The position numbers and the translations under genes are program-made. The notes under the pieces were generated by a model that searched no databases, was not told the DNA's origin, and saw only the letters and a list, made by a program, of their open reading frames with translations. Source: a virus (Duplodnaviria > Caudoviricetes). From it: DNA of 64,000 nucleotides. This document shows positions 59,908-61,612 of this stretch, one piece after another; position 1 is the first letter of the stretch; the number at the start of each line of letters is the position of its first letter. The stretch spans positions 69,587 to 133,586 of IMG/VR virus record IMGVR_UViG_3300035520_001860. One strand, 5' to 3'.

Positions 59908-59936
59908 TTGACAAATGGTTTAATATGAGTTATAAT
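59908..59936 (+). promoter_or_regulatory. sigmaA promoter driving the leader peptide
   Basis: TTGACA-17-TATAAT. Confidence 0.85.
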
Positions 59937-59969
59937 ATTTATATAAAAATGAAAGGAAAACTAGGTCAA

Positions 59970-60086
59970 ATGAATCAATTAGCTAGAACATTTGAATTTG
60001 ATATTGAACATTTTGAAGTCCATGATGAAGTCATTATGGATTCTTTGTCGTTCAATAGAATAATTCATGTTACAGCTAATACTTAA
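59970..60086 (+). CDS. Putative F/E/D/I/H/V-rich leader peptide
   Basis: GAAAGGA RBS; MNQLARTFEFDIEHFEVHDEVIMDSLSFNRIIHVTANT. Confidence 0.75.
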   Translation: MNQLARTFEFDIEHFEVHDEVIMDSLSFNRIIHVTANT

Positions 60087-60108
60087 ATAAACTTAGATAA
60101 TTTATATT

Positions 60109-60171
60109 AGTGCATATTATAAAGCACCTAAGGCTTATGGAAGTGAGCTTTAGGTGCTTTTTATGTGCATT
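60109..60171 (+). terminator. Attenuator-like terminator hairpin, copy 2
   Basis: aaagcacctaaggcttat-ggaa-gtgagctttaggtgcttt followed by T-rich sequence; compensatory changes versus copy 1. Confidence 0.8.
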
Positions 60172-60191
60172 AAAACGAAAGGAATAACTAC

Positions 60192-60344
60192 ATGGTCGAA
60201 TGTGATTTTAGCAGCGGCGACATTAGTAGTCATGATGAACATTGTGATGAACATGAACCAAAAAGTGAAGAACACTTTATTAGTATGATAGCATTTTTAG
60301 TTGCTAGACATATAAGGTCCTACTCCAACTGCACTCTTTTTTAG
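60192..60344 (+). CDS. Second small D/E/H/F-rich ORF
   Basis: GAAAGGA RBS; MVECDFSSGDISSHDEHCDEHEPKSEEHFISMIAFLVARHIRSYSNCTLF. Confidence 0.6.
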   Translation: MVECDFSSGDISSHDEHCDEHEPKSEEHFISMIAFLVARHIRSYSNCTLF

Positions 60345-60388
60345 GATAAAACATCAAAAAATTTTTCAAAGAAATTTTGAAAAAAGTG

Positions 60389-60417
60389 TTGACAAAGAGA
60401 AGTTTATGATATATAAT
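60389..60417 (+). promoter_or_regulatory. sigmaA promoter of the large tRNA cluster
   Basis: TTGACA-17-TATAAT. Confidence 0.85.
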
Positions 60418-60500
60418 GTATTTAGAAAGTTAAGGAAAGAGGTAAAAACAATGAAGAAACGATTTAGTAATAGTAAAGATACAGAAAGTAACTTTACTAA

Positions 60501-60574
60501 GCCTCGTTAGCTCAGTTGGTGAGAGCATTCGGTTGAAGCCCGAAAGGTCGCAGAGTCGAGGTCTGCACGAGGCA
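60501..60574 (+). tRNA. tRNA-Phe(GAA)
   Basis: gcctcgt/acgaggc; ttcgg-ttGAAgc-ccgaa; atypical T loop gtcgagg. Confidence 0.85.
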
Positions 60575-60589
60575 CTCAATTAAAATCAA

Positions 60590-60661
60590 GCCCCATGAGT
60601 CGGAAGGAAAGATGTTCGCCTGTCACGCGAAAGATAACGAGGTCAGTACTCGTATGGGGCG
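60590..60661 (+). tRNA. tRNA-Asp(GTC), atypical
   Basis: gccccat/atggggc; ttcgc-ctGTCac-gcgaa; G73; T loop gtcagta. Confidence 0.75.
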
Positions 60662-60692
60662 CTGTCTAAGAAAATAGGAAAGGAGCAAAAAT

Positions 60693-61046
60693 ATGAGAGA
60701 TGTAGATCACATCAATTATACTATTGCACACAGAAAAGTATTCAGAAAAGTTGAAAAACAGCTTCTTGGACACAATACAGTAAGAAGTCTATTTCATGAC
60801 TTGGACAAAGTAATAATGTACAACTTCATAGATTCAAAGAAAGTTCATAACTTTCATAGAAATCATGCAAGACATCATGCAGTAAAAGCAAGGACACATG
60901 CAGATTTTGTTCAAATGGTAATTGATTGGGAATGTGCAAGATATACGAAACCAGACAAACCATTAAATGCACGTGATACATTATATAAGTTTTATCCAGA
61001 ATTAGAAGATAAGATACTTCCAATTCTAAGTGAACTAGGACTTTAA
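60693..61046 (+). CDS. His-rich HD-like hypothetical protein within the tRNA cluster
   Basis: AAGGAG RBS; HDLDK...HRNHARHH...MVIDWECA. Confidence 0.65.
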   Translation: MRDVDHINYTIAHRKVFRKVEKQLLGHNTVRSLFHDLDKVIMYNFIDSKKVHNFHRNHARHHAVKARTHADFVQMVIDWECARYTKPDKPLNARDTLYKFYPELEDKILPILSELGL

Positions 61047-61119
61047 AACAACAGATTCAAAACATATTTAACTGAATAAACAAAAAGAGGTTTATTAACT
61101 GAATAGTAAAAGATACTAT

Positions 61120-61194
61120 GGGATTGGTGGTGTAGCTGGTTAACACATCGTACTGTGGATACGAAGAGCGTGGGTTCAAATCCCACCTGACCCC
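61120..61194 (+). tRNA. tRNA-His(GTG)
   Basis: Encoded G-1 with C73; tcgta-ctGTGga-tacga. Confidence 0.85.
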
Positions 61195-61203
61195 CTTAAA
61201 TAT

Positions 61204-61277
61204 GGCTCATTGGGAGAGTTGGTTAATCCGCCTGACTGTCTATCAGGAGAGCGTCAGTTCGAACCTGACATGAGTCG
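61204..61277 (+). tRNA. tRNA-Asp(GTC)
   Basis: ggctcat/atgagtc; cctga-ctGTCta-tcagg; G73. Confidence 0.88.
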
Positions 61278-61284
61278 CTAATAT

Positions 61285-61357
61285 CACCGATTACTCGAGT
61301 GGCTACAGAGGACGCCCTTTCAAGGCGTAAAGACGGGTTCAAGCCCCGTATCGGTGA
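61285..61357 (+). tRNA. tRNA-Glu(TTC)
   Basis: caccgat/atcggtg; acgcc-ctTTCaa-ggcgt. Confidence 0.88.
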
Positions 61358-61370
61358 CTATATAAAACAT

Positions 61371-61443
61371 GGGGCATTAGTCTAACGGCAGTGATGATTG
61401 CTTCTCAGGCAATAGATGAAGGGTTCAACTCCCTCATGCCCTA
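61371..61443 (+). tRNA. tRNA-Glu(CTC)
   Basis: ggggcat/atgccct; attgc-ttCTCag-gcaat. Confidence 0.8.
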
Positions 61444-61447
61444 CTAT

Positions 61448-61521
61448 GCAGGCTTAGCTCAGTTGGGATGAGCATCTGCCTTACAAGCAGAGTGTCAGTG
61501 GTTCAAATCCACTAGCCTGTA
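61448..61521 (+). tRNA. tRNA-Val(TAC)
   Basis: gcaggct/agcctgt; tctgc-ctTACaa-gcaga. Confidence 0.92.
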
Positions 61522-61539
61522 CTATTAAACTTAATAAAT

Positions 61540-61612
61540 GCAAGTATAGCTCAGTTGGGAGAGCACACGCCTGATACGCGTGGTGTCAGCAGTTCAAATC
61601 TGTTTACTTGCA
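61540..61612 (+). tRNA. tRNA-Ile(GAT)
   Basis: gcaagta/tacttgc; cacgc-ctGATac-gcgtg. Confidence 0.88.

What the first reader, a model, noticed from the sequence alone, without database searches (positions are those of the whole stretch)
59908..61612. Leader peptide spelling out the amino acids of the downstream tRNA cluster: a candidate tRNA-depletion-sensing attenuator
Seen: promoter (59908), then a 38-codon ORF with RBS, a terminator hairpin, and a tRNA cluster Phe, Asp, His, Asp, Glu, Glu, Val, Ile. Codons 8-22 of the ORF (FEFDIEHFEVHDEVI) are 15 consecutive residues drawn only from F, E, D, I, H and V, which is exactly the set of six tRNA identities downstream, and all six are used. Rough estimate: if those six make up ~40% of residues, such a run has a chance of order 1e-6. 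Known: ribosome-stalling attenuators (trp, his, ilv type) use cognate-codon-rich leaders to control amino-acid biosynthesis operons, and phages carry tRNAs that can offset host anticodon nucleases. Inference: stalling caused by cleavage or uncharging of any of these tRNAs permits read-through and boosts the element's replacement tRNAs, a multiplexed tRNA rescue switch that I do not know to have been described for tRNA genes. Caveats: a second promoter (60389) lies directly before the tRNAs, so the leader may only modulate output, and the leader Val codons are GTC while the tRNA is Val(TAC).
Basis: partly seen in the sequence, partly recalled or inferred. Interest (0 to 1): 0.96.

Follow-up and report, generated by a model that had tools for sequence, protein, structure and literature searches.

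The report
Leader-peptide sensors before phage tRNA genes
In this large uncultured gut phage, each of two tRNA gene blocks follows a tiny translated test gene spelled in the amino acids those tRNAs carry, plus a transcription stop; this probably lets the phage sense when those tRNAs run short, a control I found in no paper.

Summary
The 15-residue run at 59991-60035 is the longest run from those six amino acids in all six frames of the 133.6-kb record. A second module, 3 kb upstream, puts the record's richest Tyr/Trp stretch before a Tyr-Tyr-Trp block.

A 268-kb relative has four such modules. Their leader cores use only Tyr/Trp; Phe/Asp/His/Glu/Ile; Cys/Gln/Arg/Met; or Ser/Thr/Asn, and each matches the tRNA block behind it. 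Relatives without a Val tRNA have no Val in the leader core.

Every leader has a ribosome-binding site, folds as one long hairpin, and is followed by an intrinsic terminator with strong covariation.

Best reading: a ribosome-stalling sensor of tRNA supply that raises read-through into the tRNA genes.

The output step is not shown:
- A perfect promoter lies between terminator and tRNAs in every module, so read-through can only add to its output.
- A ribosome-dependent antiterminator is clear in one relative's module but not in the two window modules.
- No expression data could be obtained.

Eight literature searches found no published account. Earlier unchecked notes from this scan report the same pattern in many other giant phages.

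The parts
59908..59936 (+). P1, promoter of the Phe-to-Ile leader
   Evidence: 12 of 12 match to TTGACA-17-TATAAT. It is one of seven perfect sites in the 133.6-kb record, all on the + strand.
59970..60086 (+). Leader ORF A: 38 codons plus TAA stop
   Evidence: A purine-rich SD-like stretch lies 10-19 nt before the ATG. Orthologues occur in G001, L073 and L076.
59991..60035 (+). Control run: 15 codons using only F, E, D, I, H, V
   Evidence: Longest such run in six frames of the record. Thirteen of the 15 codons are readable by the downstream tRNAs; the two Val GTC codons are the exception.
59978..60080 (+). Leader hairpin spanning almost the whole ORF, with the control codons in its 5' arm
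   Evidence: MFE -35.9 kcal/mol, z -5.0, 0 of 200 shuffles as good. Kept in the consensus fold of four orthologues.
60107..60113 (+). Short segment that copies the terminator's 3' arm; candidate antiterminator strand
   Evidence: Pairs with the terminator 5' arm in 92% of cells, with 2 pairs showing double changes. Alternatively pairs with the stretch past the U-run in 90% of cells, with 3 such pairs. Alignment A5.
60121..60162 (+). Intrinsic terminator T1: 18-pair stem, 4-nt loop, U-run
   Evidence: Across nine homologous copies 98.5% of cells pair, 5 pairs show double changes, and 0 of 500 shuffles reach the score.
60163..60173 (+). Stretch after the U-run that pairs back to 60107-60117; it exists only in read-through RNA
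60192..60344 (+). Second small ORF (50 codons) with its own SD, also enriched in the block's amino acids
   Evidence: 14 of the first 24 residues are in the set (P 0.002). Orthologues in G001 and L076 score higher. No significant RNA structure.
60389..60417 (+). P2, perfect promoter directly before the tRNA block
   Evidence: 12 of 12. The same module occurs at 57050 and 30309 and before every leader-gated block of G001 and the Phe-to-Ile-type block of L076.
60501..61613 (+). tRNA block: Phe(gaa), atypical Asp(gtc)-like, a 117-codon ORF, then His(gtg), Asp(gtc), Glu(ttc), Glu(ctc), Val(tac), Ile(gat)
   Evidence: ARAGORN, Rfam.
60693..61046 (+). 117-codon ORF inside the tRNA block, with an HD-type metal-site motif
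   Evidence: 41 relatives in IMG/VR. Invariant H, HD, H, HH and D columns. AlphaFold pLDDT 93. Only weak matches to HD and HD-GYP domains, Z 5-6.
56669..56764 (+). Leader ORF B: 31 codons plus TAA stop, before the Tyr-Tyr-Trp block; it has no promoter of its own and follows a 91-codon ORF
   Evidence: Orthologues in G001 and L076.
56696..56722 (+). Control run: 6 Tyr and 1 Trp in 9 codons
   Evidence: Richest Tyr/Trp 10-residue window in six frames of the record (7 of 10).
56673..56780 (+). Leader hairpin of module B
   Evidence: MFE -27.8 kcal/mol, z -5.4. Consensus fold has one compensatory pair at its base.
56796..56838 (+). Terminator T1 of module B, homologous to 60121-60162
   Evidence: 17 pairs plus U-run. 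Homology found. Covariation.
56883..56999 (+). Second small ORF of module B
   Evidence: 4 Tyr/Trp among residues 2-10 (P 0.002).
57050..57078 (+). P2 of module B
   Evidence: 12 of 12.
57124..57415 (+). tRNA block Tyr(gta), Tyr(gta), Trp(cca)

Best explanation
Each of the two tRNA blocks is preceded by a translated leader ORF whose core is written only in codons decoded by the tRNAs of that block. The whole ORF folds as a long hairpin and an intrinsic terminator follows it.

I read this as a ribosome-mediated attenuator that senses decoding speed.

- When the cognate tRNAs are plentiful, ribosomes run through the leader, the RNA refolds, and transcription coming from upstream stops at the terminator. 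That transcription starts at P1, or at the preceding operon for the Tyr/Trp module.
- When any of these tRNAs is scarce, uncharged or cleaved, the ribosome stalls in the 5' arm of the hairpin. The downstream RNA then folds differently and more polymerases read through into the tRNA genes.

This conditional supply adds to the unconditional output of the strong promoter P2.

Shown here: the codon-to-tRNA match and its covariation, the SD sites, the hairpins and the terminators.

Inferred: that the leaders are translated, that stalling lowers termination, and that read-through matters beside P2.
For: 1. Composition match
- The leader run is the top run of its kind in the whole record.
- The Tyr/Trp leader holds the top Tyr/Trp window, and it lies before the Tyr-Tyr-Trp block.

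2. Relatives
- Relative G001 has four blocks with matching leaders. Two have 18-residue cores drawn only from Cys/Gln/Arg/Met and only from Ser/Thr/Asn. About 1e-10 and 6e-8 such runs are expected per genome.
- The matrix of seven leaders against six blocks is perfectly diagonal.
- A third lineage, L076, repeats both module types.
- Only the window has a Val tRNA and Val in the core. G001 and L076 have neither; L073 also lacks Val in the core, but its short contig ends before any tRNA block.

3. Codon level
- Ile is always ATT, although 60% of Ile codons in the genome are ATA, which Ile(gat) cannot read.
- Both Ser codon families, both Gln codons and the rare CGA/CGC codons are used where the matching isoacceptors lie behind.

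4. The peptide itself is not conserved
- After a 1-nt indel, the 3' halves of the Tyr/Trp leaders of G000 and G001 read homologous nucleotides in different frames. The control codons stay in frame.

5. RNA structure
- All seven leaders, including the unrelated ones, fold as one long hairpin, with z from -2.8 to -7.5.
- The terminator shows 5 pairs with double changes and 0 of 500 shuffles reach its score.
- The Cys/Gln/Arg/Met module of G001 has a textbook antiterminator. Its 5' arm starts at the leader stop codon and can also pair with the leader's SD. Sequestration of the terminator 5' arm rises from about 0.5 to 0.85 when a ribosome is placed on the control codons.

6. Other support
- Leader-terminator units are duplicated in tandem in G001 and L076, as expected if tight gating is selected.
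Against: - A perfect promoter (P2) lies between terminator and tRNAs in every module. The tRNAs need no read-through, and the attenuator can at most add to P2.
- For the two window modules the best linker-to-terminator pairing is no better than shuffles.
- In those modules, predicted sequestration of the terminator 5' arm does not depend on ribosome position.
- The consensus fold of the Phe-to-Ile leaders suggests a linker hairpin that could even invert the logic.
- The two Val codons are GTC, not a standard match to Val(tac).
- The window's third tRNA cluster (30531-32453) has the same promoter module but no matched leader.
- There is no evidence of translation or of transcript ends.
Confidence: 0.6

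Rival explanations
1. The leaders do sense decoding of the block's codons, but the output is not increased read-through into the tRNA genes. Three alternatives remain open. (1) Inverted logic: fast translation gives read-through. (2) Control of the second small ORF, or of processing and stability of the read-through RNA, for example cleavage of the long hairpin that forms only after read-through. (3) A free-standing P1-to-T1 transcript that acts in trans.
For: - P2 makes the tRNAs independent of read-through.
- No state-dependent antiterminator appears in the window modules.
- A possible hairpin between the stop-codon region and the terminator-arm copy would invert the logic.
- The extension helix past the U-run forms only in read-through RNA and shows covariation.
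- The second small ORF is also enriched in the same amino acids.
Against: - The Cys/Gln/Arg/Met module of the relative has the classical arrangement and direction.
- Tandem leader-terminator units make most sense as gates on read-through.
- The second small ORFs have no terminator or significant structure behind them.
Confidence: 0.22
2. The small ORFs encode functional micro-proteins, or are untranslated by-products of a structured RNA such as a processing hairpin of the tRNA precursor. On this view the likeness to the tRNA set is secondary, for instance because the phage tRNAs serve to translate these peptides.
For: - The hairpins are very stable and could be RNase III-type sites.
- There is no direct evidence of translation.
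- The N-termini of the second small ORFs are conserved.
Against: - Four unrelated leader cores each match their own block, down to codon choice.
- The C-terminal half of the Tyr/Trp leader changes reading frame between orthologues while the RNA is kept. The peptide is therefore not the selected product.
- A hairpin alone cannot explain why the core uses only the block's amino acids in one frame with an SD in front.
Confidence: 0.08
3. Chance: low-complexity AT-rich sequence happens to spell the amino acids of the neighbouring tRNAs.
For: The Tyr/Trp stretch on its own is only moderately unlikely. About 0.2 windows with at least 7 of 10 Tyr/Trp are expected per record.
Against: - These are genome-top hits located exactly upstream of the matching block, twice in this record.
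- Expected counts per genome for the relatives' leaders range from 1e-10 to 4e-3.
- The pattern repeats in three lineages.
Confidence: 0.01

Closest known systems
Leader-peptide transcription attenuators of amino-acid operons (trpL, hisL, pheL, leuL, and the multivalent thrL and ilvL of enterobacteria; textbook knowledge)
   Same: A short ORF with a run of regulatory codons, an intrinsic terminator behind it, RNA hairpins that involve the coding region, and a multi-amino-acid core as in thr and ilv leaders. One relative's module has a classical antiterminator that starts at the stop codon.
   Different: - The regulated genes are tRNA genes, so the sensed molecule is the gene product itself rather than an amino acid made by the operon.
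- Up to six amino acids are sensed at once.
- The element is in a phage.
- A strong promoter lies between terminator and genes.
- A second cognate-rich small ORF follows the terminator.
- The antiterminator is not evident in the window's own modules.
pheST attenuator (pheM leader) of E. coli, a leader-peptide attenuator of a translation-apparatus gene (my knowledge, not tested here)
   Same: Decoding speed of cognate codons controls the supply of a component of the same decoding step.
   Different: It controls a synthetase rather than tRNA genes, senses a single amino acid, has no internal promoter, and is bacterial rather than viral.
T-box riboswitches of Firmicutes
   Same: They sense the state of a specific tRNA and act through a terminator/antiterminator choice upstream of translation-related genes.
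   Different: T-boxes bind the tRNA directly, need no translation and recognise a single specifier codon. No T-box or other Rfam cis-regulatory family matches here.
Ribosome-stalling transcription attenuators of Firmicutes resistance genes (bmrB-bmrCD, vmlR type; my knowledge)
   Same: They show that leader-ORF stalling can control intrinsic termination in hosts with this promoter and SD style.
   Different: There stalling is caused by antibiotics, not by tRNA supply, and the leaders are not codon-matched to a product.
Phage tRNAs as counter-defence against tRNA-cleaving immunity (PMC10264068; PMC11464382)
   Same: This gives a reason why a phage might want its own tRNAs on demand.
   Different: As seen in their titles and abstracts, those papers describe the tRNAs themselves, with no leader-peptide control of their genes. 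No nuclease or host is known for this phage.

Membership tests
Ribosome-mediated (leader-peptide) transcription attenuator | Short ORF with start codon and ribosome-binding site in the leader transcript | tested here: met
   ORFs at 59970-60086 and 56669-56764 have purine-rich SD-like stretches. The relatives' unrelated leaders have strong SDs 7-9 nt before the start. Translation itself is not shown.
Ribosome-mediated (leader-peptide) transcription attenuator | Run of regulatory codons cognate to the regulated product | tested here: met
   Genome-top runs, a diagonal leader-by-block matrix and codon-level match. The Val GTC codons are the exception.
Ribosome-mediated (leader-peptide) transcription attenuator | Intrinsic terminator between leader and regulated genes | tested here: met
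   Hairpins with U-runs at 60121-60162 and 56796-56838. Covariation across nine copies.
Ribosome-mediated (leader-peptide) transcription attenuator | Antiterminator that excludes the terminator and whose formation depends on ribosome position | tested here: inconclusive
   A 7-pair candidate (60107-60113 with the terminator 5' arm) has modest covariation. Energies are no better than shuffles and there is no state dependence in the window modules. It is clear only in the Cys/Gln/Arg/Met module of G001.
Ribosome-mediated (leader-peptide) transcription attenuator | Regulated genes depend on the transcript that passes the attenuator, with no promoter in between | tested here: not met
   Perfect promoters at 60389 and 57050 lie between terminator and tRNAs, in all modules and lineages.
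Ribosome-mediated (leader-peptide) transcription attenuator | Read-through rises when the cognate charged tRNA is scarce | not testable with these tools
T-box riboswitch | Match to the T-box covariance model (specifier loop and T-box sequence) | tested here: not met
   No hit at gathering score in the window, nor at E up to 1 in 56600-62100.
Translational attenuation (erm/cat type) | Stalling in the leader frees a sequestered ribosome-binding site of the next ORF | tested here: inconclusive
   The SD of the second small ORF (about 60177-60184) is unpaired in the predicted folds, so there is nothing obvious to free.

The most novel reading that the evidence does not exclude
Large phages run a modular tRNA-supply regulon. 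tRNA genes are sorted into blocks, and each block is gated by a translated test ORF written in that block's own codons, so the phage tops up exactly the tRNA set that ribosomes are short of. The shortage could come from host shut-off, codon demand or tRNA-cleaving defence. This Firmicutes-style lineage would be a two-input version: a constitutive promoter plus one to three stalling sensors in series.
Probability: 0.5. Interest if true: 0.92.

Novelty: new variant of a known kind. Interest (0 to 1): 0.85.

Why it matters
Why phages carry tRNA genes has been debated for decades, with codon compensation and escape from tRNA-targeting defence as the main ideas. How these genes are regulated is largely unknown.

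A sensor written in the block's own codons would mean the phage measures decoding capacity directly and feeds back on tRNA supply. That extends leader-peptide attenuation from amino-acid metabolism to the decoding machinery itself.

It also gives a sequence-only way to predict which tRNAs belong together, and a compact multi-input stalling sensor for synthetic biology. The claim is directly testable with small reporter constructs.

Tried and rejected
- Exact DNA search for the shared terminator module in IMG/VR found nothing.
- Protein anchors gave mixed results. The 91-codon ORF and the metallophosphatase alone found no relatives. The 117-codon ORF found 41 loci, mostly without nearby tRNAs. 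The GGDEF protein found the key relative G001.
- A protein search with the leader ORF found only itself.
- A degenerate leader pattern in reference genomes hit only two unrelated enzyme genes in Gammaproteobacteria, so the host is not identified.
- A pattern for the second small ORF found only G001.
- The linker-to-terminator duplex test, the SD-to-linker duplex test (notable only for two modules of G001) and the ribosome-state sequestration test gave no support for a classical switch in the window modules.
- The second small ORF regions have no significant structure.
- Foldseek found no match for the 117-residue protein.
- Eight literature searches found no paper on leader-peptide control of tRNA genes.
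- I considered and rejected a T-box, because there is no Rfam match, and chance.
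Full report
**Context.** The window is the last 64 kb of a 133.6-kb IMG/VR virus record (G000). 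CheckV rates the record 59% complete, and its GC content is 32%. The window encodes topoisomerase II, a DnaB-like helicase, a Lon-like protease and many homing endonucleases. It also carries 15 tRNA genes called by ARAGORN (a 16th by Rfam alone) and a tmRNA. This is a large phage. Near-identical or related contigs come from human-gut metagenomes.

**The observation.**
- A perfect promoter lies at 59908.
- An ORF of 38 codons plus stop lies at 59970-60086.
- Its codons 8-22 use only Phe, Glu, Asp, Ile, His and Val.
- An 18-pair terminator lies at 60121-60162.
- A second perfect promoter lies at 60389.
- The tRNA block follows. ARAGORN calls seven tRNAs. The eighth, at 60590-60661 with anticodon gtc, is an atypical tRNA that reaches 38.6 bits on the Rfam model only with permissive filters.
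- A 117-codon ORF (60693-61046) interrupts the block.

The 15-residue run is the longest run from this six-letter set anywhere in the six-frame translation of the record.

**A second module in the window.** A self-search showed that the terminator and the promoter module recur 3 kb upstream and again at 30.3 kb. Before the Tyr-Tyr-Trp block there is a 31-codon ORF (56669-56764) with 6 Tyr and 1 Trp in nine codons. A homologous terminator (56796-56838) follows, then a second small ORF whose residues 2-10 include two Tyr and two Trp, then a perfect promoter (57050). That stretch is the richest Tyr/Trp window in all six frames of the record. I reached them independently and tested them.

**Relatives.** The neighbouring GGDEF protein led to a 268-kb relative, G001. 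G001 has four leader-gated blocks:
- a Tyr/Trp-rich leader before Trp-Tyr-Tyr;
- two tandem leaders with cores of Phe/Asp/Glu/His/Ile before Asp-His-Asp-Ile-Phe-Glu-Glu;
- an 18-residue core of only Gln/Met/Cys/Arg before Cys-Cys-Gln-Arg-Arg-Met-Arg-Gln;
- an 18-residue core of only Ser/Thr/Asn before Asn-Thr-Ser-Thr-Ser-Ser.

Expected numbers of such runs per genome range from 4e-3 down to 1e-10. Scored against all six blocks, each of the seven leaders matches its own block best by a wide margin.

A metagenome scan with a degenerate leader pattern found further copies and a third lineage, L076, with both module types. Only the window has a Val tRNA, and only its leader core contains Val. In G001, L073 and L076 the corresponding codons are Ile and His; G001 and L076 have no Val tRNA, and the short L073 contig ends before any tRNA block.

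These act as negative controls.

**Codon level.**
- All control codons are readable by the tRNAs behind them, except the two Val codons.
- Ile is always ATT, although ATA makes up 60% of Ile codons in the genome and Ile(gat) cannot read it.
- The Ser/Thr/Asn leader uses both Ser codon families where Ser(gct) and Ser(tga) lie behind.
- The Cys/Gln/Arg/Met leader uses both Gln codons. It uses AGA plus the rare CGA and CGC where Arg(tct) and Arg(acg) lie behind.
- The Val codons are GTC, the rarest Val codon (4%). GTC is not a standard match to Val(tac). It could be a deliberately slow codon, or it could be dictated by the hairpin. I cannot tell which.

**The peptide is not the product.** Between G000 and G001 a 1-nt indel just after the Tyr/Trp run puts the conserved downstream nucleotides into different reading frames. 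The 3' halves of the two peptides are therefore unrelated although the RNA is kept. This is the signature of a leader ORF, not of a functional micro-protein.

**RNA architecture.** All seven leaders, including the two that are unrelated in sequence, fold as a single long hairpin covering nearly the whole ORF. The control codons sit in the 5' arm, and z-scores run from -2.8 to -7.5. Consensus folds of the orthologues keep this hairpin.

I aligned nine homologous terminator regions.
- The terminator pairs in 98.5% of cells, with five pairs changed on both sides; no shuffle reaches this score.
- A 7-nt segment just 5' of the terminator (60107-60113; 56782-56788) copies the terminator's 3' arm.
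- That segment can pair with the 5' arm as a candidate antiterminator: 92% of cells paired, two double-change pairs, 16 of 500 shuffles as good.
- It can also pair with the stretch just past the U-run, a helix that exists only in read-through RNA: 90% of cells paired, three double-change pairs.
- In two cases all four strands changed together. This hints at two alternative conformations, but the numbers are small.

**Limits of the switch model here.** For the two window modules, the best pairing between linker and terminator 5' arm is no better than shuffles. Predicted sequestration of that arm does not change when a ribosome is placed at the control codons, at the stop codon, or nowhere. The consensus fold of the Phe-to-Ile leaders also offers a linker hairpin that would invert the logic.

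In contrast, the Cys/Gln/Arg/Met module of G001 looks classical. A segment starting at the leader stop codon pairs with the terminator 5' arm, or alternatively with the leader's SD. Sequestration of the terminator arm rises from about 0.5 to 0.85 in the stalled state. I take this as the best indication of the direction of control for the family.

**The promoter problem.** P2 is a perfect sigma-70-type site with an A/T-rich upstream element. It lies 23-84 nt before the first tRNA in every module. Read-through can therefore only add to P2.

A plausible but untested rationale is a two-input design. P2 would give an unconditional early burst, and the gate would admit transcription from upstream operons when decoding slows. 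Three of the seven leaders have no promoter of their own and simply follow protein genes. Leader-terminator units are duplicated in tandem in G001 and L076, which suggests selection for tight gating.

The second small ORF behind each terminator is also enriched in the block's amino acids. It has no structure or terminator of its own, and its role is open.

**Comparison with known systems.** The element works like the multivalent leader-peptide attenuators of amino-acid operons. In logic it is closest to the pheST attenuator. It fails one membership criterion, because a promoter lies behind the attenuator, and another is inconclusive, because the antiterminator is unclear. It is not a T-box.

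Eight full-text searches found no description of leader-peptide control of tRNA genes. Recent work on phage tRNAs as counter-defence (PMC10264068, PMC11464382) gives a possible selective reason. As seen in their titles and abstracts, those papers describe no such control. Earlier unchecked notes of this scan report the same pattern in many other giant phages. I did not test those notes.

**Verdict.** The sensor reading is strongly supported. The output step is inferred, at about 60% confidence. This is a new variant of a known regulatory principle, of high interest, and cheaply testable.

Noticed in passing
window 61864-61938 (promoter-like site at 61711): A tRNA with anticodon tta, which would read the stop codon TAA, sits just after the Phe-to-Ile block with its own promoter-like site. 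Both window leaders end in TAA. ORFs in the window are intact under table 11, so no recoding is evident here.
   Followed up: no
window 30531-30607 and 31704-31777; tmRNA at 32037-32453: Two tRNA-like genes with 8-nt anticodon loops lie beside Gln and Pro tRNAs, a phage tmRNA and long GC-rich spacers. This cluster has the same promoter module (30309) but no matched leader.
   Followed up: partly
window 60693-61046: A 117-residue protein is embedded in the tRNA block. It has 41 relatives in IMG/VR and lies next to tRNA arrays in L007-L010 and L076 as well. It has invariant H, HD, H, HH and D columns and a confident all-helical model (pLDDT 93). Matches to HD and HD-GYP phosphodiesterase domains are only weak (Z 5-6).
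   Followed up: partly
window 58801-59883: A membrane-anchored GGDEF diguanylate cyclase gene lies directly before the leader. In G001 it appears split by a frameshift into 311 and 74 codons. Together with the small HD-motif protein, this may point to tampering with cyclic-dinucleotide signalling.
   Followed up: no
window 57502-58764: A GIY-YIG homing endonuclease with HTH and NUMOD domains sits between the two tRNA modules, at the same place in G001.
   Followed up: no
window 60590-61661 region: 60590-60661: An atypical tRNA (anticodon gtc, odd T loop) is missed by ARAGORN and by Rfam's default filters, but scores 38.6 bits with permissive filters.
   Followed up: yes
window about 60318-60330; L055 about 10244-10257: A roughly 13-nt motif is shared by the ends of the second small ORFs of the Phe-to-Ile modules and by the spacer of the Cys/Gln/Arg/Met module of G001. 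Its meaning is unknown.
   Followed up: no
L056 2128-2345: In G001, a GC-rich structured stretch ending in a tRNA-like T arm and acceptor lies between a perfect promoter and the Ser/Thr/Asn leader. No tool called it.
   Followed up: no
window 63491-64000 (runs off the record): An ORF with a long Asn/Met/Gln/Gly/Tyr repeat follows the metallophosphatase gene. In G001 the Cys/Gln/Arg/Met leader and its tRNA block sit at the syntenic place, so further tRNA modules of G000 may lie beyond the record's end.
   Followed up: no
window 60350-60388 and 57020-57049: Short A/T palindromes lie just upstream of the -35 box of P2 in several modules. They could be an UP element or an operator.
   Followed up: no
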